64,000 nt of DNA, taken from the IMG/VR virus record IMGVR_UViG_3300023440_000003, positions 15,588 to 79,587 of that record, one strand, 5' to 3'. Both the position numbers and the translations under genes were made by a program. Under the pieces are notes generated by a model. That model saw only the letters and a list, made by a program, of their open reading frames with translations. It did no database searches and had not been told where the DNA came from. Shown here piece by piece: positions 5,760 to 52,349 of the stretch. Position 1 is the stretch's first letter; every line of letters starts with the position of its first letter. Origin of the DNA: a virus.

Positions 5760-8700
5760 TTATGGCCTCTTAGGTTCAAAAGGTTTAATATTGGATATTA
5801 TATTTTCCATACTGGCTTGTTCTGGTTTAAATTCATCTATGTTTGTTACTGGCACACTTAAGAGACCTGTTTCTAGATTCATCGAAAATAATCCTCTGTA
5901 GCTTCCACCATATTTCATTGGTGATATATCTAATCGAATTTGTCCTTTGCCTGGCTTTTTTGTAATAGTGTATTTATCTGGTGCGCCACTTGCCGTTATA
6001 AATTGTTGTAATTTTCTCTTTATCATATCTCTAGCTTCGTCGATAGTTCGTTTTTTCTTTAAATAGCCTATGACATAAAAACCTCTTCCTCCTGAGAATC
6101 TAACTTCCACTTGTTTAATGTCTGGATCTTTTTTCATGAAATCTCTTACCTTTTTTGTTACTTCTTTGATTTGATCAAAATCTACATCAGGCCCTGGATC
6201 GATATCTACAACTAATCTATCAGTTATAGCACCAAATGATGGATGAAATTCTACAGTTCTTCTTTCAATCCAGTATTGAAAGTCTTCTGGATTGTCTACA
6301 TCTCCTTTATGTTGTTTTATTTTTATTTTTTCTTCATCTATATTACGTCTTAGTACTATCCTGGAAGGATCAAATGCTTGCATTACAATTACCTGAGGGA
6401 ATTGTTTCAATTCATTAAGAAGATTTTTTCTGATTTTTGGTTGCATATAGAGTAAGAATATATCTCTTTTGGTAAAACTACCGAATGGTGCGTCTACTAT
6501 GATATTATCCCATCTTTCTGGATCGGGAGTTTTTGATGCTACTTTTTCTATAAATTCTTTGCCCTTTTCAGGATGCCATCCTATAAAAACTGGCTGTCTA
6601 AGTGCTCCATCGGGGTATTGTCCGGCTGCTCTGATTTTTGCCACTCGACCTATATATTTTTCTGGATGTTCTGCCATATCTTTTCTTTGTTCCATTGTAA
6701 ATCCTGCACCTACTCTTCCTACCACGGGCCCGTTAGGTTCGAAAGAGTATTCTATACCTCCAGCATATTTGCCTCTCCAGTTTGGAGAAGAGGATTCAAA
6801 GATACCTACTACATAAACATCATATTCAGGTTTGAATTTTGCTTTTACAGGTTTTTCTACATCTTCGAGATTTTGTATTACTATACCTTCTTTAGATTCA
6901 GGTATGGATCCGGTACGTATTGCATCAAAAAGCATTTGCTTTTCTTCTTTGGTAAACGCTGCTTGTGGAGGTTCTGCATAAGGAAAGTGTTGAACGAATT
7001 CATTAATCAGCCTTAGTTTTTCTTTGTAAGGTAATTCTTTTTCTACATATTGGTCTTTAAATTTTACAACATCAAATACCGTAAGGCGGGGCTGGACTTT
7101 TTTGCTTTCAATAAGTTTTCTACTTATTGGAGTCTCGCTATGGGTAACACTTACTATTTCATTAATTGGTTTAGCCTGTCCTTTTTCATCTGTAAGAAAA
7201 AGTTCGGCTCTGAATATACTTCCTTTGAATGATGAAGGCACTTTGAATTTTCCATAAGGAGGAACTTTATATGTATGTTCTATTAATCCCGTACTTGTGC
7301 TTACAGCCCATCTTGGTGAAAAGAGCTTGACTTTACCATCTGGTTTTACATAAAGAAGAACTTGTACACCATCATCTTTTCTGGTAAATATGTATCTATC
7401 ATCATTTAGGAATCTTTTAATTGCTTCTTCTGGAGTTATTTCTTTGTATTTTTCTTTACCTTCCGGAAGGTCCAGTAGTTTATCTCTGGTATCGGTAACA
7501 TTTATCATGTACCAGTTATCACCTTGACCTTTAGTTAACAGGTATTCTTGAGTTTCATTTGCTCGATATATGTTGAATCTTATATGAGAATCATCTGCAC
7601 TTAAGATGTCAGCTTTACCTCTGAACTCTATGGTTACTGTTCCTGCACCATAGTATCCATCAGGAATGCGTCCTGAAAAATTCATATAGTCCATTGTGTG
7701 ATCTGGTTGTCTTATGAATAATCGACGTTCTCCTGGCATAGGCCAGTATCTTCCCGCCCAACTGTAAGCTATTTTTGTTTTAGGATCTCCAAGTCTGAAA
7801 TCGAGGTGGCTATTCGATACAAGCAAACTGCCTGCAAAGTAATTATGATTATCTTCTACTTCAATATCATATCGTTCTAGTGGTTTTGACGGATTTACTT
7901 TTATATACTTTATCTCTCTGATAGGTACAGGCAATAAGGTCATTTCATTATGCGTTGCAGCTGTCCAGTTGTAATATCCTATTTCATCTAAAGGACATTT
8001 ATATTCCATGCCTTTAGCGATGTAAGGAGCTACTAATTTTAGGAATCTTTCTATACTTTTTTTCCTGTTTATGGAAATATAGTAGTAGGTTTTGCCGTTA
8101 GGATAAGTTCTATTTCTTAGAGTAGCGTGGATTTCGTATTTTTCTCGTAGCCATGTAATAATAAGTTGTACATCTTCTTTAGGAAAGCCGAGAGTGTGTA
8201 AGAGTATTTGCTGATGCGGACTAATTCTTTTTCCTCGGTCTGATCTAGGTCTACGTTTGTATCGAGCTGAATGTTTAATAACATAGTCGCCTCCCGGAAC
8301 ATATTGACCATCATCCATATACCATACTGCTAATGCTCTTTCGTCTATCATATCTAATATTTCCTTAGTGATACGTTTCTTGCCGTCTTTGTATAAGATA
8401 TTTCTGAGTAGATAAAACCATGGATGTTTTATTCTGAAATAGTAATAGTCTTGTCTTTTGCCTTTACCTTGTCTAATTTCGACGTCCATTTTAAACGTTG
8501 GAGAGAGAAGTTTGTAACCAAAATCGAAATACTCTTTGTTGACTTGTCCCCAATTGAATGTCCAAGGAGTAGTCTGCGGAATAGACCCATCACCTAATAG
8601 CGCACCTAAGATAAATTGTTTTTGATCTTCTGTTAAATTTTGCACAGGCATCAACATATAATCCCCTTTACGAACATCTTTAGCCAGTTTTGGGATAATT

Positions 8701-9191
8701 TTTCCATCCACATATACATACACTTTATGGTTTCCTGTCAGTGTTATTGACCCACGTCTCGAGTGGAATCTAAGTCTTATCCATTCAGTGGATGTTCCAT
8801 TTTTATACCAGTTAACCACCCTTTTCCATTCCAGTTTACCTGTTCTAAAATTGTAGCTTAGGACTTTTATAGGTAGACGTTTGTTGACTATTTCTTGAAT
8901 TCTTATTCTTCCCTTGTCAGTGATAATTCGTGTGCCTCCCGTCAAACATCCAGCACGTTTAGCATTATGCTTTTGAATGACGCATTCCCATTCTACTGGC
9001 GGATCATCAGGTCCAAGTTTTATAGTCGGAATTGGGGATTTTTGTTCAAAATTTATAATTCCAGTTATAGCAGTATCATTGTATCTGGATTGTGCTCTCT
9101 GTATTAATTTATCCGCTTCTTGCAATAATGGGTCTTCAAGTACAGCCAGATTGTTTAGATTTTCCGCTATTTTAGTTAATTTTTTCCACAT
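5760..9191 (-). CDS. ligD: LigD-like NHEJ enzyme (phosphoesterase, ATP-dependent ligase/OB, primase-polymerase), intein-containing
   Basis: Phosphoesterase: VIQKHNAKRAG/SHLDFRL, DHTMDY, GYYGAG. Ligase: RKDDG, VFDVV, EGIVI, KAKFK. OB: GRVGAGF, LRQPVF. Polymerase: VEFHP, DRLVVDIDP, SGGRG, IRLD. Confidence 0.9.
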   Translation of the reverse strand: MWKKLTKIAENLNNLAVLEDPLLQEADKLIQRAQSRYNDTAITGIINFEQKSPIPTIKLGPDDPPVEWECVIQKHNAKRAGCLTGGTRIITDKGRIRIQEIVNKRLPIKVLSYNFRTGKLEWKRVVNWYKNGTSTEWIRLRFHSRRGSITLTGNHKVYVYVDGKIIPKLAKDVRKGDYMLMPVQNLTEDQKQFILGALLGDGSIPQTTPWTFNWGQVNKEYFDFGYKLLSPTFKMDVEIRQGKGKRQDYYYFRIKHPWFYLLRNILYKDGKKRITKEILDMIDERALAVWYMDDGQYVPGGDYVIKHSARYKRRPRSDRGKRISPHQQILLHTLGFPKEDVQLIITWLREKYEIHATLRNRTYPNGKTYYYISINRKKSIERFLKLVAPYIAKGMEYKCPLDEIGYYNWTAATHNEMTLLPVPIREIKYIKVNPSKPLERYDIEVEDNHNYFAGSLLVSNSHLDFRLGDPKTKIAYSWAGRYWPMPGERRLFIRQPDHTMDYMNFSGRIPDGYYGAGTVTIEFRGKADILSADDSHIRFNIYRANETQEYLLTKGQGDNWYMINVTDTRDKLLDLPEGKEKYKEITPEEAIKRFLNDDRYIFTRKDDGVQVLLYVKPDGKVKLFSPRWAVSTSTGLIEHTYKVPPYGKFKVPSSFKGSIFRAELFLTDEKGQAKPINEIVSVTHSETPISRKLIESKKVQPRLTVFDVVKFKDQYVEKELPYKEKLRLINEFVQHFPYAEPPQAAFTKEEKQMLFDAIRTGSIPESKEGIVIQNLEDVEKPVKAKFKPEYDVYVVGIFESSSPNWRGKYAGGIEYSFEPNGPVVGRVGAGFTMEQRKDMAEHPEKYIGRVAKIRAAGQYPDGALRQPVFIGWHPEKGKEFIEKVASKTPDPERWDNIIVDAPFGSFTKRDIFLLYMQPKIRKNLLNELKQFPQVIVMQAFDPSRIVLRRNIDEEKIKIKQHKGDVDNPEDFQYWIERRTVEFHPSFGAITDRLVVDIDPGPDVDFDQIKEVTKKVRDFMKKDPDIKQVEVRFSGGRGFYVIGYLKKKRTIDEARDMIKRKLQQFITASGAPDKYTITKKPGKGQIRLDISPMKYGGSYRGLFSMNLETGLLSVPVTNIDEFKPEQASMENIISNIKPFEPKRP
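7812..8948 (-). mobile_element. Intein (379 aa) with LAGLIDADG homing endonuclease in the LigD phosphoesterase domain
   Basis: Starts CLTGGTRI; block B LTGNHKV; ILGALLGDG and LAVWYMDDG; ends YDIEVEDNHNYFAGSLLVSN followed by Ser+1. Confidence 0.92.
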
Positions 9192-9206
9192 TTTGTGCTC
9201 TTTTTG

Positions 9207-9215
9207 ATTTTATCA
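9207..9215 (-). promoter_or_regulatory. Extended -10 promoter (TGATAAAAT) for the ligD-tape measure unit
   Basis: TGnTAnnnT 15 nt upstream of the ATG. Confidence 0.55.
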
Positions 9216-9248
9216 TAGTGACTTCTGTTGAAGAAACCCTTATTTAGC

Positions 9249-9257
9249 GGGTATAAG
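9249..9257 (+). promoter_or_regulatory. Class-B promoter-like motif GGGTATAAG
   Basis: Same nGnTATAAG motif as at 21613, 31290, 60422 and 62516; upstream of the helicase operon. Confidence 0.5.
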
Positions 9258-9287
9258 TAGAGAAAATTACGACGAGGAGGTGGAGGC

Positions 9288-11645: not shown

Positions 11646-12827
11646 ATGCTTTACAACGATTGGTTAAGTAAGTCGTTATACAGGCATCAGCTTTATAAAA
11701 CTGCTTTTTTACCCCCTTTACCTGTGGGTTTACGTTTAAGGGCTATCGAACTGCCCGCAGTTGGACTTGAAACTTTGAGACAATCAGGACATAGATTATC
11801 TCAATATTTAGGTTCTTTAAGATCTTCACGTCAATATCGTAGAGGTTTACGGAATCTTGGTTCAGCTTTAGAACGAGGTGGTGAACTTGCTCTTAGGCAG
11901 GCTCAATCTTTAGAACGTTTATTTAATGCTGTAAGTACGGCAGCTATGAATGCTAGTGCTGAAAGATTTTTTTCTCAATTAGGACGCGCAGGATCTTTAT
12001 ATGCCGCAAGAGCATCAGGAATTTCTCGTTTGGGTAAAGCTTTAGAATCAGCTGCTCAGCTTCAGGCTGCAAAAAATATTGGAGAATTCTTAAGGACATA
12101 TGGCACTCCTCCTGTTCGTAATGCAAGAGTTAGTAGAAGTATTTTTTCTAAAGTGATGCCTTATGCTTTGATTGGTGCAGGTGGATATTTATTGGCCAGA
12201 GCGATATCGAAACCAAAATCTAAGTCTAAATATATATCAAAAACTGCTTCTATTTATGGAGGTGAACCTATGTATTACATACATCCATTGTTAATAAAAA
12301 TAGCTGAAGATCGAGCTTTAGAAGAACTTCAGAATCGCTTAGCTCAACTCAGACAATTTGGTGTTTTAAACTATCCAGATGTTGTGCAGGCTTTAGAGAT
12401 TGCGCCTCCTTTGCTATTAGGTGTTGCAGGTATAGGTTTAGGAGGATTTCTCGGTAGAAGGCATCCTCTTGCTGTGGGTCTTGGTACTATGCTTGGAGGT
12501 ATTCTTGGGGGTTTTGGTGGTTATAAACTGGGTCAATGGTTAGCTAATGTATATGCATCAGATCCTGAACGATTGGCACTAGCACGTAAGTATGGTGAGG
12601 CGCTTCTTGCTTATCGAAGAGCTTTAGGATTATCTGCTCCTTCTTTACCGTCAGATCCTGTAAGATTGATGAAAGCTATATCTGCTTTGACTCCTGCTGC
12701 TGTGAAGGAAGAAATTGCACGACAAAGATTAGAAGATAGTATTAGAGCACAAAAAGCTGCGTTGTTAAGTAAAGCAATGGCTGATCAGATGTTAGGAAAA
12801 GATACTAATTTATCTATAGGAATTTGA
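11646..12827 (+). CDS. Putative internal virion protein with glycine-zipper helices; internal in-frame start at 12270
   Basis: SD GAGGTG before ATG 11646; LYKTA, SKTA and LIKIA motifs; GxxxG helices. Confidence 0.6.
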   Translation: MLYNDWLSKSLYRHQLYKTAFLPPLPVGLRLRAIELPAVGLETLRQSGHRLSQYLGSLRSSRQYRRGLRNLGSALERGGELALRQAQSLERLFNAVSTAAMNASAERFFSQLGRAGSLYAARASGISRLGKALESAAQLQAAKNIGEFLRTYGTPPVRNARVSRSIFSKVMPYALIGAGGYLLARAISKPKSKSKYISKTASIYGGEPMYYIHPLLIKIAEDRALEELQNRLAQLRQFGVLNYPDVVQALEIAPPLLLGVAGIGLGGFLGRRHPLAVGLGTMLGGILGGFGGYKLGQWLANVYASDPERLALARKYGEALLAYRRALGLSAPSLPSDPVRLMKAISALTPAAVKEEIARQRLEDSIRAQKAALLSKAMADQMLGKDTNLSIGI

Positions 12828-12830
12828 GAC

Positions 12831-13118
12831 ATGAAGGATAATTTAATTCTTGCAGCATATTATTTGTACAAATACGCTAAAGGAGGACATTCTCGTAAAG
12901 ATCCCACTCCTGAACTCGTTGATCATGTTGCTGCCAGAATAATGAAGGAACATCCTGAATACACCAGAGAGCAGGCTTATCGTATTGCAGTTAAGCAACT
13001 CCAAAGACATGGTTATTTGAAGAAAGGAACCATGCAGTTAACAGAAAAAGGTAAACGCCAGGCTCAAAAGCATTATAAACATAGACGAGCATTAGATTGG
13101 AAAAAACGACCTTATTAA
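12831..13118 (+). CDS. Small basic putative head protein
   Basis: YYLYKYA leader followed by a K/R/H-rich body. Confidence 0.6.
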   Translation: MKDNLILAAYYLYKYAKGGHSRKDPTPELVDHVAARIMKEHPEYTREQAYRIAVKQLQRHGYLKKGTMQLTEKGKRQAQKHYKHRRALDWKKRPY

Positions 13119-13131
13119 GGAGGTGAATGTT

Positions 13132-13521
13132 ATGTTTGAGTACATTACTCCAGAGAACTTAGCTATTTTAGATATCGTATCGGATTTACACATCCAAGAA
13201 AATGACCCAGTTTATACGTTAATGAAGTATGCTGACGCGCAACGTGCGGCTTTGATTGCTGGAACTGGACTTAGTTTAGCTGGTGGAGGAGGTTTGCTGT
13301 ATGATTTGATCAGAAAAAGACTGATTCAGAAAAAATTACAACAGCTTGGAGGCACCCCTATAGCATCATTGCCTGCGACTACCGGAGGATTGAGAATTTC
13401 TGATTTGTTGGGACGACGCAGTTCTAATTTGCTTTCAATACTTAAGCGGAAAAAACATTTGTGGCCTGTGTTTGCTCTTACTTTAGGTGGAGGTCTTTTA
13501 ACTTATGGTTTATTGGATTAG
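13132..13521 (+). CDS. Putative internal virion membrane-helix protein
   Basis: SD AAGGAGGTG; LMKYA motif; two Gly-rich hydrophobic helices. Confidence 0.6.
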   Translation: MFEYITPENLAILDIVSDLHIQENDPVYTLMKYADAQRAALIAGTGLSLAGGGGLLYDLIRKRLIQKKLQQLGGTPIASLPATTGGLRISDLLGRRSSNLLSILKRKKHLWPVFALTLGGGLLTYGLLD

Positions 13522-15783: not shown

Positions 15784-16146
15784 ATGTATTACGACATCAT
15801 GCTTTACAAATTAGCACAACAACAACAAATGAATGAAGAAGCATTGAAAAGAGCTTTAGGGCGTAGATTTATTCAAACACTGGCGTTAAGTGAGCGACTC
15901 GCTGAACAGACTTTACCTCGTTTTGGAGTTGCTGTAGGATCTGGTGTTTTAGGTGGAGCTCTTGGTGGCGCTGCTACTGCTCTATTACGGAAAGGACCTG
16001 TTGGTCGTACTATGGGTAAAGGTGCTTTGATTGGTGGTGTTTTGGGTGCGGGATTAGGTATTTATGATTGGCTTCGTCGTAGAAAGATTCAGCGTGCATT
16101 AGCTAGAAATATGCTTATGAATTATATGTATCAATACAGATTATGA
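15784..16146 (+). CDS. Glycine-zipper putative internal virion protein
   Basis: MYYDIMLYKLA leader; GVLGGALGGAA and GALIGGVLGAGLG. Confidence 0.65.
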   Translation: MYYDIMLYKLAQQQQMNEEALKRALGRRFIQTLALSERLAEQTLPRFGVAVGSGVLGGALGGAATALLRKGPVGRTMGKGALIGGVLGAGLGIYDWLRRRKIQRALARNMLMNYMYQYRL

Positions 16147-43568: not shown

Positions 43569-44393
43569 GTGATTAGATTACCTTGCATACGTTTCATAGC
43601 GGCTTCATTAATTTTATTTGATGATATAGAACAATGTAAAGAGTTTCTTGTACAGAATTACGTTCCTTTACCTCCGGATGATAAATTACAAAAATTGAAT
43701 GAAGTAGTGAAAGGCTCTTCAAAACGATTGACAAAGACTCAAAAAATAAAACTTCTGAAAGAAAAGAAAATGCCAGAATTTGCAAGGTATTTTATAAAGG
43801 GTGAAATAGACATGGAGCCTGATTTTGATGAGCTCTTACACGTGCAGCAAAGTTTTAATATAAGAATACCACTTCAAGCTTTTTTGATGACCAAAGACCC
43901 TGACATGTTGAAATTAAGTCCTTTTGAGGTTTCTGAAAAAACACGTGAACTTTATAAATTCTATTTATTTGACATAGAAAAGATGAGATTAAAAGACTGG
44001 ATAGTTTATCTTAAGTTACTGTATGAATTATTTCCTACGGATGCCAAATTGCTACTTATGCTTAAGAAAGGAGAAACTTTCTTATTTAAAAGGCACTTCA
44101 AACACTATTTGAAGATAAGTATGGATGATGTAAATATGGAGCTTAATAGTACTGCTGTTACAGTATTTCGCTTGTTAAGTGAACAGATTATTAAACAGGA
44201 TGAATATGGAAATTTATACCTTGAAATGAAGCCAGAAGTTTTTAGGGAGGCTAGATTATGGGCTAATTTACTTATTAATTCTATGAAGGTATTCAGAGAA
44301 CAACTGACAGGAGAACAGATACCAGAAAAAGTGGAATTAGTGCCACATGAATATGATATACCCACATTAAAAAGATTAATAGATGGGAAGTAA
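43569..44393 (+). CDS. Hypothetical protein, terminase small subunit candidate
   Basis: Directly upstream of and overlapping terL; helical; start reassigned to GTG 43569. Confidence 0.4.
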   Translation: MIRLPCIRFIAASLILFDDIEQCKEFLVQNYVPLPPDDKLQKLNEVVKGSSKRLTKTQKIKLLKEKKMPEFARYFIKGEIDMEPDFDELLHVQQSFNIRIPLQAFLMTKDPDMLKLSPFEVSEKTRELYKFYLFDIEKMRLKDWIVYLKLLYELFPTDAKLLLMLKKGETFLFKRHFKHYLKISMDDVNMELNSTAVTVFRLLSEQIIKQDEYGNLYLEMKPEVFREARLWANLLINSMKVFREQLTGEQIPEKVELVPHEYDIPTLKRLIDGK

Positions 44394-45918
44394 CAAACCA
44401 GTACAGCTTCGCAGAAGCGATCTTGTTGCAAGTCTTATATATATCGGAGGAAAGCCTTTTGATTTTAAAAATAGAGAATATTTAATACCTATTTATGATA
44501 CATTTAGGCCGGTTGTATTAAAAGGTGGTAGACAGATTGAAAAAAGTACTTTGCTTGCTGTGATTATGATTATTGACGGAATAAGTCATGATTTTTTCAA
44601 TTCGTTATATGTGAGTTATACTCAAAAACAGGTATCATTTTTTTCTAATTTACGTTTCGATCCTATAGCGTCATACTCTCCTTACATAAAATCTCATTTC
44701 TATACCGGCTCAAATCTAATAAAAAGGGTTGGTGATAAAACTTTTCGCAATGGTTCTGCGTTCTTTTTTAGATCAATGTATTCACATCATACAGCAGAAT
44801 CTATAAGAGGATTAAGCGCTGATAGAATATGTTTCGATGAGGTTCAAAGTCTCGATCCTAGAGGAATGTCTATAGTGGAGGAATGTATGTCCCACTCACC
44901 GTATAAATATGTAATATATGCAGGTACAGCAAAATCTCCTCAGAATGAAATAGAACGTATGTGGAATATGTCGACTCAGATTGAGTATATGATCAAATGT
45001 GAAGCATGCAACCACTGGAATTATCAGGATGAGAAAATAATAGGCAAAAACAGTTATATATGCAGTAGATGTGGAAAGCCTATAGATATGAGAAATGGTA
45101 CTCTTGTTATGATGGGAGATAAATATGCGCCATACTTTGGAATGCGTATCACTCAGATGCAGGCTCCTTTTGTAAGTTTTGATGAAATAAAACTTAAATA
45201 TGAACGTATGCCATTATATCTGTTCTATAATGAAGTCCTGGGTCTTCCTTATGAATTTGCAGAACGCCCCATCAGTTTAAGAGAACTGCAGGCTTGTTGT
45301 GTTGATAGAGATTTCATAGAGTCTTCTACTCTTGTAGGTAGAACTGTAGCTGCGGGAATAGATTGGGGAGGCGGTACCAGATCTTTTACTGAGGTGGTTA
45401 TAGGAGAATTTATAAATGGTAAGTACAAAGTCTATTATGTGCATAGATTAAAAGTAGCAGATCCTATTGAGCAGGTGGATTTTCTATCTAGATTGCTGAA
45501 GACTTATAAAGTCAGAATTGCCGTATGTGATATGGGTTTTGGTGACATGAAAGTACAGGAGCTTAGAGCTCTAACTGGCATTCCAGTTATTGGTTGTTAT
45601 TATTCATCTACTAAAGTCAGAAGCATTATATATAAAGAAAAAGAAAATATGATCCATGTAAATAGAACCTGGGCCTTAAGTGAAGTATTTCGTCTTTTGA
45701 AACGTAGAAGGTTTGAATTTCCCAGATATTCTATAATGGCAGAATTTTTTGAAGAAATCCTGAACGTAACAACTGAGGTACATCAAGTTCAGGGGCAAGA
45801 TACAATTATGTATATTCACGATGCCGAACATCCAGATGATTTTCTTCATGCGCTGAATTATTTTAAAATAGCCTGCGATTATAAAAAATTCGTTGACAAT
45901 CTTAACATAGTGGTTTAG
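44383..45918 (+). CDS. terL: Terminase large subunit (GpA-like)
   Basis: VLKGGRQIEKST, IRGLSADRICFDEVQ, CEAC/CSRC zinc finger, NEVLGLPY, AGIDWG, DDFLHA. Confidence 0.88.
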   Translation: MGSNKPVQLRRSDLVASLIYIGGKPFDFKNREYLIPIYDTFRPVVLKGGRQIEKSTLLAVIMIIDGISHDFFNSLYVSYTQKQVSFFSNLRFDPIASYSPYIKSHFYTGSNLIKRVGDKTFRNGSAFFFRSMYSHHTAESIRGLSADRICFDEVQSLDPRGMSIVEECMSHSPYKYVIYAGTAKSPQNEIERMWNMSTQIEYMIKCEACNHWNYQDEKIIGKNSYICSRCGKPIDMRNGTLVMMGDKYAPYFGMRITQMQAPFVSFDEIKLKYERMPLYLFYNEVLGLPYEFAERPISLRELQACCVDRDFIESSTLVGRTVAAGIDWGGGTRSFTEVVIGEFINGKYKVYYVHRLKVADPIEQVDFLSRLLKTYKVRIAVCDMGFGDMKVQELRALTGIPVIGCYYSSTKVRSIIYKEKENMIHVNRTWALSEVFRLLKRRRFEFPRYSIMAEFFEEILNVTTEVHQVQGQDTIMYIHDAEHPDDFLHALNYFKIACDYKKFVDNLNIVV

Positions 45919-45960
45919 TTTGGGTATTGAACATATGAATATGCTAAAATTGACTTGACT

Positions 45961-46989
45961 ATGGAAATAGTTAAGAAAGCCATAGATCTGTATTATAGTG
46001 AAAAACTAGATCCTCATGCTGTATTAGCCGCCTGGGTTTTACGTGATAGACCTCCCAGAGCTGTTATAGAAAAAGCTGCTAAGGAAATAAATCAAGCTCT
46101 TTATACTGAGGAAGTCCTGAGAAGAGGTAATCTGGATGTAAATATTCCTTTGATAAATATAGACAAAGTAATGAAACTTATTGAATCTTACGAAAATAGT
46201 AACCCCAGATCTGAACCTCTTCCAGAAATAGATTTAGTATCTACTCCTTCCGCTATAGGAGAACTTGTTTCTAACGGTCGTATGGAATTATGGTTAAACG
46301 ATATGTTAAAGCAAGCAGATGATCGTCCTAAAAGTTCTCCAGAAGCTTTGAGAGAAAAAGTTATTAATTTGTTGAAAACCACGTATACAGAAGAGTATAG
46401 GAAAATTAAAGATCACTTAGTTAATACTATTCTTGATCTTGAAGATTTTACTGAAAAAGTAGCATCTGCTATGGTCAATGATACTGTATATTTAAATGTA
46501 GCTCCTCAGTCCTTTTTTCCTATTCTGGATCACTATATAAAAAATCCTGGAATTAAGAGTCTGATATTGCAAAAATATAATGAAGGCTTATCTAAGCATG
46601 CTTCTATTGATTCTTCTGAAATGATAAGTGGTGATAGAGTCATTGATGTTATTGATAAAATGAGCACTATTTACTATTTAAAATCCGACAACAGAACTAG
46701 ACATCTCGATCACACTACAATATCTATTCCAGTTTTATACACTTTATTTTCTGAAATGGGATGTGAAGATATGTTGGACACCTCAGAAATAAAGCCAATA
46801 AAAAAAGAAAAATCGGACGAAATAGAACTTGAAGTAAAAATACCTATTCCTAAAAGCCCGGGTGATCTAATTAATTATCTGTTAAGTTTCGACGTAGCGG
46901 AGTCTATTGATTACAAACCTATTCTTCAGTCCATTATTGATCTGGCCAAACTCAAAATGCTATTGGGGGTGTTAGATGAATCGGAATGA
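45961..46989 (+). CDS. Putative head core protein
   Basis: IEKAA, MLKQA, EKVA, LSKHA; ATG 10 nt after TGCTAAAAT. Confidence 0.5.
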   Translation: MEIVKKAIDLYYSEKLDPHAVLAAWVLRDRPPRAVIEKAAKEINQALYTEEVLRRGNLDVNIPLINIDKVMKLIESYENSNPRSEPLPEIDLVSTPSAIGELVSNGRMELWLNDMLKQADDRPKSSPEALREKVINLLKTTYTEEYRKIKDHLVNTILDLEDFTEKVASAMVNDTVYLNVAPQSFFPILDHYIKNPGIKSLILQKYNEGLSKHASIDSSEMISGDRVIDVIDKMSTIYYLKSDNRTRHLDHTTISIPVLYTLFSEMGCEDMLDTSEIKPIKKEKSDEIELEVKIPIPKSPGDLINYLLSFDVAESIDYKPILQSIIDLAKLKMLLGVLDESE

Positions 46990-47434
46990 AATAGTATATG
47001 CTATGCTTTACAAAACTGCAGCTGGAGGGTCAATAGAACCGTTAGGAGTGCGCCACAGACTAAGAAGAATTGTAAGATTATTAACACCTCCTATGGTAGG
47101 CTTAGGAATACTTCACATGTACCACACTGTTAGATCATGGATCGATAAACGCCATTTTGAAAAAGTACTTGAAGAAGTCATGAAAGAACCATCAATAGCA
47201 AGATATCCAAAAGAACAAGTGCGTAGATATGCTGAAACTTTTTATGAACTCAATCCGGATCTTGCTACAAAAGCTGAAGTCTTAAAAACTTTTCTACGGT
47301 CTGCCTTAGCGATGCAAGGTATAGATCCGGGTTTTGCTAGTAAAGTTGTGCAGAGAACTAAACCACCTATTGATATCAGTGTGCCTTTAGGTCCTATTAT
47401 AGCTCAAAAACTTTTTGGGTCTATGGGATCATGA
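46976..47434 (+). CDS. Putative internal head protein
   Basis: YAMLYKTAA leader; hydrophobic helix. Confidence 0.55.
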   Translation: MNRNEIVYAMLYKTAAGGSIEPLGVRHRLRRIVRLLTPPMVGLGILHMYHTVRSWIDKRHFEKVLEEVMKEPSIARYPKEQVRRYAETFYELNPDLATKAEVLKTFLRSALAMQGIDPGFASKVVQRTKPPIDISVPLGPIIAQKLFGSMGS

Positions 47435-48714
47435 TTAAGTATTTTTCAGATAGTATGATTCTTGCTTATGTAGATTTAAAAAAAGACATACTCCATAAAA
47501 TTGCATCAAGTCCAGATCTTGAAAAAATCGCTGAAGAATCATTACGCAAAAAACCTTTAGAACCTGGGTATCGTAGAATTCTAATAAATGCACTAGGCGC
47601 TGGAGAATACTGGGGATTTAACAAGAGAGGTGATTATTTTCCTGAGAATGAACTGAATCCCTCAGAATATAGATTTGGCATCCCATATGGATATCAAACT
47701 TATGAAACTCATGGGAAAGTCTATTTACATCATAAAAAAGACAATCCTGAATTTTGCATTGGTAAAGTTGCAATGGCCTATTGGCATGATGGTTTAAAAA
47801 GAGTGTTTGTGTTAGGAGATGTACTGGAAAAGAAAGCTGCAAATTACTTAGAACACTTAAGATCTGGAAATCCAGTTCCCACATCAATGGGTGCAGCTGT
47901 GTTATTTGACGCTTGTAGTATATGTGCACCTGATTATGAATACTTAACTCAGTTTCATCCTGATGAAGTAAAGTTATTAATTAAACAAGGACAACTTCCT
48001 GGAGTACGCACTAAGCCCTCAGAAAGTCCATGTATACATGTACCCCACAGAGTTAGTACATATTATCCAGAATTAGACAAGTATGCCTATATGGTAAATT
48101 ATTATCCCGTATTTATAGATATTTCTATTGTAGATAGGCCAGCAGATTCAATATCTGCAGCACTTAAAAAAATTGCGTCAATTGATGAAAGTTTGATTTT
48201 TAATACAAGCAATCTGGCTAGAACTAAAACATTTATACATGAACAGTTATTACCTCAGTCAGTAGACAGCAAAGATATACTGCTTTTGGTCAAACTTGCT
48301 AATTTCTTAGGTCCCAAGAATACACTAAATTACCTCAGCAAATTACGCATTCCCTTAACTAAAGCTGAATTTGAAGCTATTAAACAAACTAAAATCGTCA
48401 AAACGGCTAATTTAGATCAGGATACCTTAATACATCTTGCAACATTTTTTGTAAAACGTTCGGCAGCTCCTCATGTATTGCATACCAGAGTGCAAAATGC
48501 AAAACCTGATTCAGCCTTATATCTAGAGGCTGCTGGAGATGACCATGTGAATTACATAATGGATATAATCAACGACCCTGAGTTAAAATTTGATGATAAT
48601 CATCCCATAACTAAATTAGCAAAATATACTGCTTATTATGGTCCACACGGAGATAAAAAAGTTTCCAATACTTTATCCAGATTGTATGCGGCTTCTTTTA
48701 TAGGTTTGATTTGA
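47431..48714 (+). CDS. Prohead maturation protease (HK97/herpes-type serine protease)
   Basis: NKRGDYF, VYLHH, IGKV, PTSMG, FIDISIVDRPAD; lies between terL and the capsid gene. Confidence 0.75.
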   Translation: MIKYFSDSMILAYVDLKKDILHKIASSPDLEKIAEESLRKKPLEPGYRRILINALGAGEYWGFNKRGDYFPENELNPSEYRFGIPYGYQTYETHGKVYLHHKKDNPEFCIGKVAMAYWHDGLKRVFVLGDVLEKKAANYLEHLRSGNPVPTSMGAAVLFDACSICAPDYEYLTQFHPDEVKLLIKQGQLPGVRTKPSESPCIHVPHRVSTYYPELDKYAYMVNYYPVFIDISIVDRPADSISAALKKIASIDESLIFNTSNLARTKTFIHEQLLPQSVDSKDILLLVKLANFLGPKNTLNYLSKLRIPLTKAEFEAIKQTKIVKTANLDQDTLIHLATFFVKRSAAPHVLHTRVQNAKPDSALYLEAAGDDHVNYIMDIINDPELKFDDNHPITKLAKYTAYYGPHGDKKVSNTLSRLYAASFIGLI

Positions 48715-48770: not shown

Positions 48771-49610
48771 ATGTCTACGTTCATTGATAAGGAAGTAGAA
48801 AGAATTCTTAAATCGGCTTTAAGCCCCGAAGATACGGATTTATTACAAATTTCTATGGAACTTGCTAAAGAAGCTGCAGAGTTTCAGGTAGATGATCCAA
48901 AGCAGTCACAAACTACTCAGTCTTCTCAGGAATCTGTTTCAGTTCAGAAAGTTCTGGAATCTCTGAAGAAGAAAGGACTTATTAAAACTGCTCAGGAAGA
49001 GGCTGCTGCTGCTCAGGCTGTCGCAGATGCTCTTGCTGAAGATTTATCTGCCACAAATAAGCCTGAAGATCCTTCCATGTCAAAACATGTAAACCCTGCT
49101 GTGACTACTCCTAACAATGCTGATGATCCGATCCCGCCAAATAAGACTGACGTGACTCCTGAAGGCGCTCCTGCTGAAATGTTATCTGATGTTATCGGTC
49201 AGCTCGGTACTCAGCAAGACCCTGTTAAAGCTCTTGGCGGTGAAGTAGATGTAACTGTTAAGGCTCCTAGCGAAGATGTTATGGTTAAGAAGATAAAAGA
49301 GCTCCTGGTTGCTCTTGGTATTCCAGAAGATATAGCCGAAGAAGCAGCTACGAAAGCTGGTAAATCTATTCTTACTGAATTATCCAGAGACAAGGCTTCT
49401 GCAGAAACCGGAGCTGCTCAAGATCTTCCATCTTCTCCTGAGGAAATAAAAGATACTGCTCAGGCTATTGGCGAAGCTCTTGATCAGATGGAGGCCGCTG
49501 TTTTAAGCCCGGTAGAGCAAGCTTTAGAGAGTGAGCCTTCACCGGAAGATCTTGAAAAAGTAGCTTCACTGATTTTTGGACAGTACATTAATCCGTACTT
49601 TTATTATTAA
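48771..49610 (+). CDS. Acidic scaffold-like protein
   Basis: A/E/D/P-rich; ILKSA, LAKEA, LIKTA, LEKVA; promoter TTGATT-17-TATAAT upstream. Confidence 0.55.
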   Translation: MSTFIDKEVERILKSALSPEDTDLLQISMELAKEAAEFQVDDPKQSQTTQSSQESVSVQKVLESLKKKGLIKTAQEEAAAAQAVADALAEDLSATNKPEDPSMSKHVNPAVTTPNNADDPIPPNKTDVTPEGAPAEMLSDVIGQLGTQQDPVKALGGEVDVTVKAPSEDVMVKKIKELLVALGIPEDIAEEAATKAGKSILTELSRDKASAETGAAQDLPSSPEEIKDTAQAIGEALDQMEAAVLSPVEQALESEPSPEDLEKVASLIFGQYINPYFYY

Positions 49611-49621
49611 GGAGGTGCATC

Positions 49622-49906
49622 ATGTATCCAGATCTTTTAGGTTATGACTTACTTGATTACATTAATCCTGTAGATTTTTATGCTGATCCGTATCTTGAAA
49701 TGTACGATTATATGCCTGTGTACGAACCTGTAGTTCAGACACCGCAGATTCCTGTAGTTCCAATGCCTGCGTTCACTGATACTAAATCACTTGTGAAGGA
49801 AGCTAAAGCTCTGGCAGCCTCACAAGAGGTTATTGTAAAGCTTGCGGAAGAGCTGGCTAAAAGGCCACATCTGGCGGAGTTATTACGGCTGGTTCTTAAT
49901 GCATAA
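49622..49906 (+). CDS. Putative head core protein
   Basis: Y/D/P-rich N-terminus; LVKEA, IVKLA. Confidence 0.55.
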   Translation: MYPDLLGYDLLDYINPVDFYADPYLEMYDYMPVYEPVVQTPQIPVVPMPAFTDTKSLVKEAKALAASQEVIVKLAEELAKRPHLAELLRLVLNA

Positions 49907-50142
49907 TGACTATTTATGAACAAATACTCCGCGTGGTCCAGAAGGGCCACGCGGATTCTTCTATGTCAAATAAATCGGTGGAGTCTGACTTAGATAAAGC
50001 AGTCCTTTTAAAAGTGGCTCAGATAGATAATAAAGATTTGGTTAATAAACTGAATCGGATATTGAAAATAGCTTCTATGACAGATTTGCCTTCTGTAGAG
50101 ATACCTGACGCAATAATCAAGACTATAGTAAAGGTAAAATGA
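49906..50142 (+). CDS. Putative head core protein
   Basis: LLKVA, ILKIA. Confidence 0.55.
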   Translation: MTIYEQILRVVQKGHADSSMSNKSVESDLDKAVLLKVAQIDNKDLVNKLNRILKIASMTDLPSVEIPDAIIKTIVKVK

Positions 50143-50414
50143 ATAAGCAGATTTATCATTACTTATATAAAGTAGCTGCCAGAAAGATTCCTTTTGAAAA
50201 AACGTTTAAATTTCTTAAATGGGTAGGCAGGACTACAATGAAGCATCCTACTGTAGGATTAACCGTATTTGGTGGTACACCTTTAGCTTTATACGGATAT
50301 TACAAATATATAACAAATCCTCAAGTCATTCAGCAGCGTTATTTGACTCAACGTCTTAAAGAAAGTGTTGACCAATATATAGATTCCCTTCAAGCAACCC
50401 GCACAGCTTTGTGA
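50139..50414 (+). CDS. Putative internal head protein
   Basis: YHYLYKVAA leader; hydrophobic helix. Confidence 0.55.
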   Translation: MNKQIYHYLYKVAARKIPFEKTFKFLKWVGRTTMKHPTVGLTVFGGTPLALYGYYKYITNPQVIQQRYLTQRLKESVDQYIDSLQATRTAL

Positions 50415-50453
50415 ATTTTGGTTTTCATATAACTTTCTGTTATTATTATTAAC

Positions 50454-50798
50454 ATGATGATTAGTGGTGATAAATTAAAAAAGCTTATAAAAATAGCTGC
50501 TGCTAAGATTGCTGTACAAGATAAAGTGATAAATGAATTAGTTAAGACTGCCAAAGATCTAAACAGATTTAAAGAAGCTGTTGAGATTGTGGAAAAGATG
50601 TGGAGCAAAGGTTTGATAAATGATAATGAGATATTTTTTAAGATTGCTGAAATAAAAGCCTTACCAGATGATAAATTCAATGAACTAAAAGCAAAAATGG
50701 AGATTGTTGCAGGAAGCGTATTTAAAGGAATTGATGAAAGTTCAGAAAGCTTAGATGATGAAGAAAGACTATTAGCATCTGTTCTGTTAGAAGACTAA
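50454..50798 (+). CDS. Scaffold-like protein
   Basis: Coiled, with acidic C-terminus; LIKIA, AKIA, LVKTA, FFKIA. Confidence 0.55.
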   Translation: MMISGDKLKKLIKIAAAKIAVQDKVINELVKTAKDLNRFKEAVEIVEKMWSKGLINDNEIFFKIAEIKALPDDKFNELKAKMEIVAGSVFKGIDESSESLDDEERLLASVLLED

Positions 50799-51372: not shown

Positions 51373-51389
51373 TCTAAGGAGGGATAGCC

Positions 51390-52349
51390 ATGAGGTTAAC
51401 ATTAGCAGATCTTTATGCTTCGCTTTCTAAAGGTAATATAACAAAAACTGCTCAGGCTTTTGAGTCTATTATTCGTAAACGTATCAGAGAAGACGGAAAG
51501 GCACGTATTGCGCTTCCTCCTATAAAGATCAATCCTAGCGATCTGACCTATGATCCTAACAATGAAACTCTGTTTAGGGTCATCCATATTGAACCTGAAG
51601 TGCATCGTGATTTTGCAGTAGTCACTTCTCTTAAAGGCAAGGCTGAAAAAGTTCAGACCCGTCCAGAAGCCGTTGCTGCATATCTGTACACTGTGGCAAC
51701 GAAAGAAGTAGAAATTGATGTTGTTGATACTTGGAAAACTAATTACAGCTTACAATCCTGGCTTCAGCAAAATCTTATCAAAGATCTGGAAAAGAAAGAG
51801 ACTCAGAAATTCCTCGACCTTGTACACGTTGCCGCAAATAGTACCGGATCAATAATCCAGATTCCTGCTGCTTCATGGATCAGCTTCGATCAGATACTCA
51901 GTCAGGGAATCTCCAAATTCTCTGAGGATGAGAGACGTGGATATCTCAATCTTATCATGATGAACGAAAAAGACTTTACTATTATGGTGTCTAACCTGTT
52001 CTCTCAGCAGGTGGCTGTGGATCAGCTGGCAAGAGAAATAATCTCAGATTCTCTGCAGATCACCACACTTTTCGGATATCAGTTTGTAGTCACCAGACAG
52101 AGCTCTCTTATTCCGCCTGGTGTGATTTATCTCTTTGCTAAACCAGAATGGCTTGGTGAATTCGCTCTGGTTACTGATGTATCTGTGCACATTGAAAGCA
52201 AACAGAAAAAGTTCAGCTTTGCTGCATGGGAAGCCTTCACAATGGCTATTGCTAATCCTTATGGATGTGTGGTACTTGTCCAGGAGGGAATTCCGGCTAC
52301 TAACCTGGGTAACTGGGATAAATACACCGAATCCGGTATTGTAGCATAA
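51390..52349 (+). CDS. Major capsid protein (HK97 fold)
   Basis: 319 aa after protease and scaffolds; spine helix IKDLEKKETQKFL, IMMNEKDF, TLFGYQFVVT, IPPGVIY; followed by a strong terminator. Confidence 0.8.
   Translation: MRLTLADLYASLSKGNITKTAQAFESIIRKRIREDGKARIALPPIKINPSDLTYDPNNETLFRVIHIEPEVHRDFAVVTSLKGKAEKVQTRPEAVAAYLYTVATKEVEIDVVDTWKTNYSLQSWLQQNLIKDLEKKETQKFLDLVHVAANSTGSIIQIPAASWISFDQILSQGISKFSEDERRGYLNLIMMNEKDFTIMVSNLFSQQVAVDQLAREIISDSLQITTLFGYQFVVTRQSSLIPPGVIYLFAKPEWLGEFALVTDVSVHIESKQKKFSFAAWEAFTMAIANPYGCVVLVQEGIPATNLGNWDKYTESGIVA

What the first reader, a model, noticed from the sequence alone, without database searches (positions are those of the whole stretch)
5760..52349. A shared hydrophobic-x-K-x-A motif as a candidate capsid-targeting and protease-maturation code
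Seen: unrelated proteins begin with a short Tyr/Leu-rich leader ending in KxA: QLYKTA (11646), LLIKIA (12270), YLYKYA (12831), LMKYA (13132), MLYKLA (15784), LLKEA (29687), MLYKTA (46976), YLYKVA (50139), LTKIA (LigD) and ITKTA (major capsid, residues 17-21). Scaffold/core proteins carry many copies: about 8 in 40845..42812, about 7 in the protease, and 4 in the 114-aa 50454 protein. The pattern is not evident in tail or non-structural proteins. Established: T4 and phiKZ prohead proteases remove propeptides at short motifs ending in Glu. Inference: the 47431 protease cuts after K-x-A, a different specificity, and the leader marks cargo for packaging. That would let head contents be predicted from sequence.
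Basis: partly seen in the sequence, partly recalled or inferred. Interest (0 to 1): 0.85.

Follow-up and report, generated by a model that had tools for sequence, protein, structure and literature searches.

The report
Lys-x-Ala cutting code of head protease
This uncultured ~180-kb phage and thousands of relatives mark their capsid-assembly proteins and the short N-terminal tags of small basic proteins with hydrophobic-x-Lys-x-Ala, most likely the cutting signal of the phage's own T4/herpesvirus-type head protease; no cut has been measured.

Summary
[LIVMFY]-x-K-x-A occurs 60 times in 76 ORFs against 31.5±5.4 in shuffles, and the excess lies in nine head-module proteins (34 observed, about 5.4 expected). 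In an unbiased scan of all gapped tripeptides, L.K.A and I.K.A rank first and second.

The 47431 protein has a T4 gp21/herpes assemblin fold (Z 9.0 and 8.8) and invariant His101 and Ser152. Motif sites lie in its linkers before the protease domain, after it and near the C-terminus. The first two are conserved in over 90% of 71-74 scorable distant representatives. The capsid protein keeps K-x-A at a fixed position in 45 of 51 relatives.

The same pattern appears in 80 IMG/VR loci and in cultured Salmonella phage Arash and Vibrio phage D69, where the protease is not annotated.

Best reading: this is the prohead protease's cleavage motif, a different rule from the cut-after-Glu rule of T4 and phiKZ. 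Cleavage, the scissile bond and capsid targeting are all inferred. Targeting fits the Tyr/Leu-rich leaders on small basic proteins. The LigD tag is not conserved and the RNAP tag is doubtful.

This scan has noted the same motif in at least 32 other genomes. I found no published description.

The parts
47431..48714 (+). Prohead protease gene (427 aa). Residues about 30-245 form the assemblin-fold catalytic domain and 260-427 are helical. His101, Ser152 (TSMG), Cys162, Cys165 and Cys201 are invariant.
   Evidence: AF2 model: pLDDT above 90 over residues 30-245. VIA-align top hits are T4 gp21 (5jbl, Z 9.0, rmsd 3.1, 126 aligned) and VZV protease (1vzv, Z 8.8). Foldseek top hits are herpes assemblins, at weak E-values. 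Invariant residues come from 44 sequences.
47491..47532 (+). N-terminal propeptide sites LHKIA|S (residues 21-25) and LEKIA (30-34) of the protease
   Evidence: Lys23 is invariant and Ala25 at least 90% conserved in 44 homologues at 24-63% identity. A site lies before the GAGE motif in 68 of 74 independent representatives. The segment has low pLDDT.
48163..48177 (+). Post-domain site LKKIA|S (residues 245-249), analogous to the herpesvirus release site
   Evidence: Conserved as Phi-x-K-[VIL]-A-S in alignments A1 and A2. Present within 30 aa after FFDxSxV in 66 of 71 representatives, with P1' mostly Ser. pLDDT falls to 39 just after it.
48607..48621 (+). Near-C-terminal site ITKLA (residues 393-397), 30 aa from the end, analogous to the herpesvirus maturational site
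   Evidence: An aligned column with K-x-A is present in most homologues. It lies in the low-pLDDT segment 384-406, before a terminal helix.
48286..48408 (+). Further candidate sites LVKLA (residues 286-290) and IVKTA (322-326) in the helical C-terminal region of the protease
   Evidence: The C-terminal regions of homologues carry 2-6 sites each.
51390..52349 (+). Major capsid protein (319 aa). The candidate propeptide ends at ITKTA, residues 17-21 (nt 51438-51452).
   Evidence: PHROG major head protein match. K-x-A sits 8-9 residues before the conserved [FY][ILV]RxKLRE motif in 43 of 51 unique homologues, plus 2 missed by the anchor pattern.
40845..42812 (-). 655-aa head-associated protein with 8 sites. 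The site at residues 569-573 (IIKIA) is conserved.
   Evidence: 8 observed against 1.5 expected. All 8 lie in segments with pLDDT below 50. Lys571 is invariant in 7 homologues. It is not the portal. Arash gp218, abundant in virions, occupies a similar position upstream of the head-protein genes, but BLAST finds no similarity.
45955..46989 (+). 344-aa multi-site protein between terminase and protease (4 sites; scaffold-like)
   Evidence: 4 observed against 0.5 expected. The protein in the same position in relatives carries 5-11 sites and evolves fast, with no BLAST hit. Arash gp220 and D69 0268 carry 9 each.
46976..47434 (+). 152-aa protein with the leader MNRNEIVYAMLYKTA; basic after the leader
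   Evidence: Homologues in L005, L076 and L067 keep an N-terminal site with a different leader sequence. Charge.
48771..50798 (+). Five small genes between protease and capsid gene (48771, 49622, 49906, 50139, 50454), carrying 4, 2, 2, 1 and 3 sites
   Evidence: In the closest IMG/VR relative, L005, 12 consecutive ORFs between protease and capsid gene all begin with a leader carrying 1-2 sites.
11646..13521 (+). Leader-bearing genes outside the head module: 11646 (LYKTA), the in-frame internal start 12270 (MYYIHPLLIKIA), 12831 (LYKYA) and 13132 (LMKYA)
   Evidence: Shine-Dalgarno sites lie before 11646, 12270 and 13132. The parts after the leader are basic and not homologous to one another.
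15784..16146 (+). 120-aa glycine-zipper basic protein with the leader MYYDIMLYKLA
   Evidence: Strong Shine-Dalgarno site. MYY...LYKLA leaders recur in L005. Net charge +11 per 100 aa, 15.6% Gly.
29687..30016 (+). 109-aa very basic protein with the leader MDNLVYASFLLKEA
   Evidence: Strong Shine-Dalgarno site. Net charge +18.9 per 100 aa after the leader.
5760..9191 (-). LigD (PE, ligase and Prim-Pol domains, with an intein) carrying LTKIA at residues 5-9 and IEKVA at 881-885. A doubtful substrate.
   Evidence: Pfam domains. The N-terminal tag is absent from 4 homologues. 3 sites against 1.5 expected, not significant.
3..1559 (+). Portal protein (628 aa; the gene starts upstream of the window, at contig position 15260)
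   Evidence: Homologous to the Arash portal gp204, E 1e-44.
44383..45918 (+). Large terminase, which anchors the head module
   Evidence: PHROG 675, E 3e-79.

Best explanation
Phi-x-K-x-A (Phi = L, I, M or F; often followed by S, E or A) is the recognition and cleavage signal of the phage's own prohead serine protease, encoded at 47431-48714. The enzyme has the T4 gp21/herpesvirus assemblin fold.

Proposed mechanism:
1. The protease is built into the prohead core.
2. Once active, it cuts itself at an N-terminal propeptide, at a release-like site after the catalytic domain, and near its C-terminus.
3. It removes about 21 residues from the major capsid protein.
4. It cuts the multi-site, poorly structured core or scaffold proteins into pieces (40845, 45955, 48771, 49622, 49906, 50454, and two more upstream of the window).
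5. It trims short N-terminal leaders from about a dozen small, mostly basic or glycine-zipper proteins, which would stay in the head as internal or ejected proteins.

The conserved residues sit at i, i+2 and i+4, as expected for a peptide bound as an extended strand with alternate side chains in enzyme pockets. The cut is most likely after Ala. In that case P1 is Ala and P1' is often Ser, as in herpesvirus assemblin.

The Tyr/Leu-rich leaders ending in Phi-Phi-K-x-A probably also act like T4 capsid targeting sequences.

Shown here: the enrichment, its sharp residue specificity, conservation across relatives, the protease fold and its invariant His and Ser. Inferred: cleavage itself, the scissile bond and targeting.
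For: Enrichment:
- The excess is confined to head proteins, and L.K.A and I.K.A are the top gapped tripeptides.
- In 1418 ORFs from 80 related loci, L.K.A is 750 against 172 expected (z 44), with K.AS and EK.A extensions.

Specificity:
- [LIMF].K.A is 4.1-fold over expectation.
- Arg in place of Lys gives 1.0-fold.
- Ser, Gly or Thr in place of Ala give 1.0-1.2-fold.

Protease:
- The fold matches T4 gp21 (Z 9.0) and VZV protease (Z 8.8).
- His101 and Ser152 are invariant in 44 sequences.
- Distant cultured relatives are annotated as capsid maturation or prohead protease: Gordonia phage Stormageddon and Rhodococcus phage E3.
- The conserved sites lie in low-confidence linkers at domain borders. 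They hold in 68 of 74 and 66 of 71 independent representatives.

Substrates:
- The capsid protein site is fixed in 45 of 51 homologues.
- Motif density rises two- to three-fold in the first 30 residues of ORFs in related loci.
- L005 has a run of 12 leader-bearing ORFs between protease and capsid gene, with shared MYY..LKEAAA..LYKLA leaders.
- Tyr at P4 marks N-terminal sites: 7 of 28 against 1 of 57, p = 0.0015.
- 12 of 17 leader proteins are strongly basic after the leader, while the multi-site proteins are acidic. This matches T4 internal proteins and scaffold.
- Leader proteins are not homologous after the leader.

Cultured relatives and precedent:
- Arash and Vibrio phage D69 show the same head-module pattern.
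- The T4 L/I-x-E rule, multi-cut scaffold and 10-residue CTS are described in PMC9026906. The SPN3US A-x-E rule is in PMC10052503. The herpes R-site/M-site layout is in PMC4498786.
Against: - No mature N-terminus or cleavage product is available for any member. The Arash proteome paper gives only protein-level counts, and its supplement holds no peptides.
- The protease matches no Pfam, PHROG or PDB sequence profile. The assignment rests on a fold match of moderate Z plus invariant residues, and I did not verify that His101 and Ser152 superpose on the gp21 catalytic residues.
- Three of the nine motif matches in the protease lie inside the folded domain and are unlikely to be cut.
- Counts pooled over related loci are inflated by shared ancestry.
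- The LigD tag is not conserved and the RNAP tag is uncertain. An MPK[SQT]AS start on RNAP beta is kept only in an Arash-like subgroup, 7 of 21.
- Arash virion preparations contain abundant untagged proteins. In SPN3US, 42 head proteins are uncut (PMC10052503). Both argue against a universal targeting code.
- A cut after Lys (Phi at P3 and Lys at P1, the T4 register) cannot be excluded.
Confidence: 0.75

Rival explanations
1. The motif is a protease cleavage site only. The leaders are removed, for example to release or activate membrane-active or DNA-binding proteins, but they do not direct packaging. Entry into the capsid is decided by other parts of the proteins.
For: - In Arash, RNAP beta', a helicase and many other untagged proteins are abundant in virion preparations.
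- In relatives many tags are only M-x-K-x-A, too short to be an address.
- The LigD tag is not conserved.
- SPN3US has 42 uncut head proteins (PMC10052503).
Against: - The window's N-terminal sites have extra features that internal sites lack: Tyr at P4 and Tyr upstream.
- L005 shares a leader of about 30 residues across several unrelated small proteins.
- In T4 an equivalent 10-residue leader is sufficient for packaging (PMC9026906).
Confidence: 0.35
2. The motif is cut by the same protease, but after Lys, in the T4 register: Phi at P3, Lys at P1 and Ala at P2'.
For: - T4 gp21 reads L/I-x-E with a hydrophobic P3 and a charged P1 (PMC9026906).
- Phi-x-K has the same geometry with the charge reversed.
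- Sequence alone cannot place the scissile bond.
Against: - Ala is as strictly required as Lys, with no tolerance for Ser, Gly or Thr. That fits a tight S1 pocket better than a P2' position.
- Ser is the preferred residue after Ala at the conserved autoprocessing sites, matching the Ala|Ser bond cut by herpes assemblin (my own knowledge).
Confidence: 0.2
3. The motif is an uncut docking peptide that binds scaffold, capsid or portal surfaces during assembly. Multivalent binding would explain the many copies.
For: - Many copies lie in poorly structured proteins.
- The site sits at a fixed position in the capsid protein N-arm.
Against: - The same motif brackets the protease domain in flexible linkers.
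- It ends N-terminal leaders of very different lengths, including M-x-K-x-A at residue 1.
- This distribution matches known prohead-protease substrates. A docking motif has no reason to sit at both ends of the protease domain.
Confidence: 0.07
4. The pattern is a chance or compositional artefact, a result of paralogy among the proteins, or a by-product of a DNA-level signal such as a TATAAA-like promoter inside TTA-TAT-AAA.
For: - LYK can be encoded as TTA TAT AAA.
- Some scaffold proteins contain internal repeats (Arash gp223).
Against: - The shuffles and the unbiased tripeptide scan exclude chance.
- Codon choice in the motif mirrors genome-wide usage, and the L, Y and A codons vary.
- Leader proteins show no similarity after the leader.
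- The motif is conserved at 25% protein identity and in a 53% GC phage.
Confidence: 0.02

Closest known systems
Phage T4 prohead protease gp21, with its L/I-x-E sites, the multi-cut core proteins gp22/gp67/gp68, and the capsid targeting sequences of IPI-III and Alt (PMC9026906)
   Same: - Assemblin-fold serine protease encoded in the head module.
- A short linear motif found in the protease itself, at the capsid protein N-terminus, many times in scaffold proteins, and at the end of short leaders on small basic, otherwise unrelated proteins.
   Different: - The motif is Phi-x-K-x-A, with three fixed positions and no Glu.
- The capsid propeptide is about 21 aa rather than 65.
- No detectable sequence similarity: no Pfam or PHROG hit.
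- The protease carries a conserved Cys cluster and a long helical C-terminal region.
- Nothing has been tested experimentally.
Herpesvirus assemblin (pUL26/VP24) with its release and maturational sites (PMC4498786)
   Same: - Same fold: VZV protease Z 8.8, and Foldseek's top hits are assemblins.
- Same layout: protease domain, a site directly after it, a scaffold-like C-terminal part, and a second site near the C-terminus.
- Ala followed by Ser at the conserved sites, as in the Ala|Ser bonds cut by assemblin (my own knowledge).
   Different: - The register of upstream determinants differs: Lys at P3 and hydrophobic at P5, against hydrophobic at P3 and Tyr at P4.
- The third catalytic residue is not identified.
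- This is a phage enzyme, with an additional N-terminal propeptide site.
phiKZ gp175 and SPN3US gp245 prohead proteases with the (S/A/G)-x-E or A-x-E motif (PMC10052503)
   Same: - Large phages with many head proteins.
- N-terminal propeptides removed at a short motif.
- Several motif copies inside propeptides.
- A multisubunit RNA polymerase in virion preparations, shown only for the cultured relative Arash (PMC10585845).
   Different: - Different motif (Lys and Ala, not Glu).
- Different phage lineage.
- Here the RNAP beta and beta' are fused in one ORF.
Salmonella phage Arash gp222 and Vibrio phage D69 VPHD69_0270 (cultured members of the same protease subfamily)
   Same: - 31-33% identical protease domain.
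- Same motif pattern: Arash gp220 has 9 copies, gp223 has 8, and the capsid protein has LVKEAG at residue 25. D69 0268 and 0271 have 9 each.
   Different: - Annotated only as 'structural protein' or 'hypothetical protein'.
- The Tyr-rich LYKxA leader subtype seen in the window was not seen there.
- Arash RNAP beta begins with MPKSAS.

Membership tests
Assemblin-fold prohead serine proteases (T4 gp21, HK97 gp4, herpes assemblin) | Assemblin fold | tested here: met
   AF2 pLDDT above 90 for residues 30-245. The best two of 48,161 chains are T4 gp21 (5jbl, Z 9.0, rmsd 3.1, 126 aa) and VZV protease (1vzv, Z 8.8). The next rows, MCE domains, score 6.6 or less.
Assemblin-fold prohead serine proteases (T4 gp21, HK97 gp4, herpes assemblin) | Conserved catalytic Ser and His | tested here: inconclusive
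   His101 and Ser152 are invariant in 44 homologues, spaced 51 residues apart. I did not check that they superpose on the gp21 catalytic residues, and no third catalytic residue is assigned.
Assemblin-fold prohead serine proteases (T4 gp21, HK97 gp4, herpes assemblin) | Match to the curated sequence profiles (Pfam Peptidase_S77, S78, S21; PHROG prohead protease) | tested here: not met
   The window protein has no Pfam or PHROG hit. Only 2 of 44 homologues give a weak Peptidase_S78 hit, E 0.022. There is no PDB sequence-profile hit. The relationship is at fold level only.
Assemblin-fold prohead serine proteases (T4 gp21, HK97 gp4, herpes assemblin) | Gene in the head module between terminase/portal and the capsid gene | tested here: met
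   The order is TerL 44383, protease 47431, capsid 51390. Of the 80 related loci, terminase is found in 55 and the capsid gene in 65.
Assemblin-fold prohead serine proteases (T4 gp21, HK97 gp4, herpes assemblin) | Proteolytic activity on head proteins | not testable with these tools
   Needs biochemistry or virion N-terminomics.
T4-type capsid targeting sequence (CTS) | A short N-terminal leader shared by otherwise unrelated proteins and ending in the protease's motif | tested here: met
   17 N-terminal Phi-Phi-K-x-A leaders against 1.8 expected. No similarity after the leader. The leader family recurs in L005.
T4-type capsid targeting sequence (CTS) | Cargo are small basic internal proteins | tested here: met
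   12 of 17 have +5.8 to +18.9 net charge per 100 aa after the leader, against a contig mean of +1.3. Their presence in virions is unknown.
T4-type capsid targeting sequence (CTS) | The leader is sufficient to load a foreign protein into the capsid | not testable with these tools
   Needs leader-reporter fusions during infection of a cultured relative.
T4-type capsid targeting sequence (CTS) | Sequence resembles the T4 CTS and ends in L/I-x-E | tested here: not met
   The leaders end in K-x-A, and no Glu-ending motif is enriched. The system works like a CTS but is not a member of that sequence family.
Herpesvirus-type protease-scaffold fusion with R and M sites | A site directly after the protease domain and a second site near the C-terminus of a scaffold-like extension | tested here: met
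   Sites at residues 245-249 and 393-397 lie in low-pLDDT linkers. The post-domain site is present in 66 of 71 representatives. A scaffold role for the C-terminal region is inferred.

The most novel reading that the evidence does not exclude
The Tyr/Leu-rich leader ending in Phi-Phi-K-x-A is a true, transferable capsid address. Any protein carrying it would be captured by the protease/scaffold core, loaded into the prohead, trimmed, and delivered to the host with the DNA. Head cargo across thousands of uncultured phages could then be read from sequence. That cargo would include membrane-active glycine-zipper proteins, DNA-coating basic proteins and, in some lineages, enzymes such as RNAP beta or LigD. 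Foreign proteins could also be loaded by adding the tag.
Probability: 0.3. Interest if true: 0.8.

Novelty: new variant of a known kind. Interest (0 to 1): 0.62.

Why it matters
Prohead-protease specificity has been worked out for very few phages, mainly T4, phiKZ and SPN3US, and those all cut after Glu. This candidate specificity class requires Lys and Ala and probably has Ala at P1, as in herpesviruses.

The enzyme family is very large: 5085 clusters at 50% identity in the protein library. It is missing from Pfam and PHROGs and is not annotated as a protease in Arash or in the three Vibrio phages, the only cultured phages that carry the motif.

If the rule is confirmed, it would allow:
- annotation of proteases, scaffolds, propeptides and likely internal or ejected proteins in many ~150-200-kb environmental phages directly from sequence;
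- comparison of herpesvirus and phage assemblin substrate recognition;
- a possible tag for loading proteins into capsids.

It is directly testable in Salmonella phage Arash and Vibrio phage D69.

Tried and rejected
- **DNA-level signal behind LYK (TATAAA-like).** Rejected: codon use in the motif equals genome-wide use.
- **Paralogy of the leader proteins.** Rejected: an all-against-all BLAST after removing the leaders finds only the shared inteins of LigD and RNAP.
- **40845 as portal.** Rejected: the portal is the ORF at 3-1559, homologous to Arash gp204.
- **Structure of 40845.** Mean pLDDT is 45.8, too poor for a fold search.
- **Sequence-profile identification of the protease.** Pfam, PHROGs and PDB profiles gave nothing.
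- **Single-sequence scans of IMG/VR.** The protease or the RNAP N-terminus alone found nothing. Alignments were needed.
- **Association of the tag with the Arash virion proteome.** By my hand count, 13 of 17 annotated N-terminally tagged proteins are in the list, against a base rate of 116 of 252. The list includes many metabolic enzymes and is too permissive to be decisive.
- **Peptide-level mass-spectrometry data for Arash.** None in the supplement.
- **Conservation of the LigD tag.** Absent in 4 homologues.
- **Conservation of the RNAP beta tag.** MPK[SQT]AS is kept only in an Arash-like subgroup, 7 of 21.
- **The motif in distant cultured relatives.** Cluster C mycobacteriophage Cali shows no enrichment.
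- **Literature.** The only library paper holding both 'KxA' and 'prohead' is unrelated.

Full report
**Source.** The window is most of a 79.6-kb IMG/VR viral contig estimated to be 44% complete, so the phage genome is about 180 kb. It encodes:
- a large terminase at 44383 and a major capsid protein at 51390;
- a portal at 3-1559, homologous to Arash gp204;
- a fused beta-beta' RNA polymerase and a LigD, each with an intein.

**Observation.** Strong Shine-Dalgarno sites support the start codons used at 11646, 12270, 13132, 15784 and 29687. [LIVMFY]-x-K-x-A occurs 60 times in 76 ORFs, against 31.5±5.4 in per-protein shuffles.

The excess is concentrated in nine head-module proteins, with 34 observed and about 5.4 expected. 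Examples are 40845(-) with 8 against 1.5, 47431 with 9 against 1.1, 45955 with 4 against 0.5, and 48771 with 4 against 0.7. To guard against cherry-picking I scored all gapped tripeptides in these proteins. L.K.A (19 against 1.5, z 14) and I.K.A (12 against 1.4, z 9) rank first and second, and the other ORFs show nothing similar. Codon choice inside the motif mirrors genome-wide usage, so the constraint acts on the protein.

**Proteins outside the head module.** Within the window they show no overall excess (26 against about 26). Over the whole contig, more of them than expected carry a site within the first 45 residues: 16 against 6.8±2.5, p about 0.001. The stricter N-terminal form Phi-Phi-K-x-A occurs 17 times against 1.8±1.3 over all proteins. 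Roughly seven of the looser N-terminal hits could therefore be chance.

**The protease.** The 47431 protein has no Pfam, PHROG or PDB sequence-profile match.
- Its AlphaFold model, built on 44 homologues, is confident over residues 30-245.
- In a search of 48,161 chains, the two best matches are the T4 prohead protease gp21 (Z 9.0, rmsd 3.1 Å, 126 residues) and the varicella-zoster virus protease (Z 8.8). Unrelated MCE domains follow at 6.6 or less.
- Foldseek's top hits are also herpes assemblins, at weak E-values.
- His101, Ser152 (in TSMG) and three Cys residues are invariant.
- Distant cultured relatives are annotated as capsid maturation or prohead protease (Gordonia phage Stormageddon, Rhodococcus phage E3).
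- The family is very large: 5085 clusters at 50% identity with E ≤ 0.001, and 2570 with E ≤ 1e-30.
- All four longer homologues I scanned on Pfam carry intein domains.

**Where the motif sits in the protease family.** Across homologues at 24-63% identity, three sites are kept while their surroundings diverge:
- one about 25 residues from the N-terminus (Lys23 invariant, Ala25 at least 90% conserved);
- one directly after the catalytic domain (LKKIA|S in the window, Phi-x-K-[VIL]-A-S in most);
- one about 30 residues from the C-terminus.

All three fall in low-confidence linkers of the model. In an independent sample of top-scoring representatives (148 in all), the N-terminal site is present in 68 of the 74 that have a recognisable N-terminus. 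The post-domain site is present in 66 of the 71 that keep the FFDxSxV anchor. Ser is the commonest next residue. This layout parallels the release and maturational sites of herpesvirus pUL26 (PMC4498786) and the autoprocessing of T4 gp21 (PMC9026906).

**Capsid protein.** K-x-A lies 8-9 residues before the conserved [FY][ILV]RxKLRE motif in 43 of 51 unique homologues, plus two that the anchor pattern missed. In the window this is ITKTA at residues 17-21.

**Replication in relatives.** An alignment-based scan found 390 relatives in IMG/VR, and 80 loci were kept.
- Motif density around their protease genes is 5.9 per 1000 residues, against 2.9 observed and about 1.5 expected across the window's ORFs.
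- Pooled over 1418 non-identical ORFs, L.K.A is 750 against 172 expected (z 44). M.K.A, F.K.A, I.K.A, EK.A and K.AS are also strongly enriched. Shared ancestry inflates these counts.
- The specificity is sharp: [LIMF].K.A is 4.1-fold over expectation, Arg for Lys 1.0-fold, and Ser, Gly or Thr for Ala 1.0-1.2-fold.
- Density is two- to three-fold higher in the first 30 residues of ORFs.

**Cultured relatives.** Salmonella phage Arash shows the same pattern. The protease homologue gp222 is annotated 'structural protein'. gp220 has 9 copies, gp223 has 8, gp242 has 8, and the capsid protein gp226 has LVKEAG at residue 25. Vibrio phage D69 has 9 copies each in 0268 and 0271, and its capsid protein has LTKEAG at residue 25. 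More distant relatives such as cluster C mycobacteriophage Cali share the protease domain but not the motif. The specificity therefore belongs to a subfamily.

**Leaders.**
- In the window's contig, N-terminal sites differ from internal ones. Tyr sits at P4 in 7 of 28 against 1 of 57 (p = 0.0015), and Tyr is enriched upstream.
- The proteins are not homologous after the leader.
- 12 of 17 are strongly basic after the leader and several have glycine-zipper helices, whereas the multi-site proteins are acidic. T4 shows the same split between basic internal proteins and a multi-cut scaffold (PMC9026906).
- In the closest IMG/VR relative, L005, 12 consecutive ORFs between protease and capsid gene begin with a leader holding one or two sites. 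The capsid protein and one ORF downstream of it do too. Several of them share MYY..(A)MLKEAAA..ELL.ES..LYKLA.
- Homologues of 46976 keep an N-terminal site even though the leader sequence differs.

**Limits of the cargo idea.**
- The LigD tag is missing from four homologues.
- The window's RNAP tag needs a TTG start that overlaps the ribosome-binding site of the divergent RT gene.
- RNAP beta starts with MPK[SQT]AS in Arash and in 7 of 21 related contigs, but not in the others.
- In Arash, beta' and a helicase are abundant in virion preparations without any tag. That proteome lists 116 of 252 proteins and includes metabolic enzymes, so it is a weak test.
- No peptide-level data are available.

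**Interpretation.** The distribution matches what is known for prohead-protease substrates in T4, phiKZ and SPN3US (PMC9026906, PMC10052503), but with a different code. The fixed residues at i, i+2 and i+4 fit an extended peptide with alternate side chains in enzyme pockets. The strict need for Ala, and Ser after it, favour a cut after Ala, as in herpes assemblin (my own knowledge). A cut after Lys remains possible.

I put cleavage by the 47431 protease at about 0.75, and a genuine targeting role for the Tyr/Leu-rich leaders at about 0.3-0.45.

**Novelty.** I found no published description. The only library paper holding both 'KxA' and 'prohead' is unrelated, and the Arash paper does not mention a protease. 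This scan has noted the same motif in at least 32 other genomes. Those notes are not independent evidence.

Noticed in passing
window 12270-12827 (inside ORF 11625-12827): An in-frame internal ATG at 12270 has a strong Shine-Dalgarno site (GGAGGTGA) and begins MYYIHPLLIKIA, like the other leaders. The ORF may give two nested products, as T4 gene 21 and herpes UL26/UL26.5 do.
   Followed up: partly
P0027, P0030, P0068, P0132 (protease homologues): All four longer homologues checked carry one or two inteins (Hint plus LAGLIDADG domains). In most split matches the break falls near profile positions 81 or 169-176, in the catalytic domain.
   Followed up: partly
window 47431-48714, residues 162-203: Invariant Cys162, Cys165 and Cys201 and a nearly invariant His203 follow the catalytic Ser. 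This looks like a zinc-binding insertion; I know of no equivalent in T4 gp21 or herpes assemblin.
   Followed up: no
L117 (Mycobacterium phage Cali gp93, NC_011271 45351-49211): The 1286-aa protein annotated 'tape measure' has an N-terminal domain of this protease family (SVSMG, CSYCGN, FELSYVFDPAD). It lies two genes upstream of the major head gene, so the annotation looks wrong.
   Followed up: partly
L082 and L085 (Salmonella phage Arash gp222 and gp206): Arash gp222, annotated 'structural protein', is the prohead protease homologue. RNAP beta gp206, the most abundant protein in the virion proteome, begins MPKSAS.
   Followed up: yes
window 31253-31312: The RT gene (30018-31268, minus strand) has a perfect Shine-Dalgarno site (AAGGAGGTGAT) that lies inside the TTG-started 5' end of the RNAP ORF. 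The RNAP start codon (31253, 31313 or 31325) is unresolved, and none has a Shine-Dalgarno site.
   Followed up: partly
window 29687-30016 and contig 13255-14607 (L116): Both proteins carry a DSxFA...YPIH segment right after their leaders. The larger one gives a weak DUF6582 hit (E 0.098).
   Followed up: no
contig 7525-14607 (L116, upstream of the window): A second cluster of leader-bearing and multi-site genes lies just before the portal gene: 7899, 8154 (5 sites), 9888, 10635, 12372(-) and 13255 (10 sites).
   Followed up: partly
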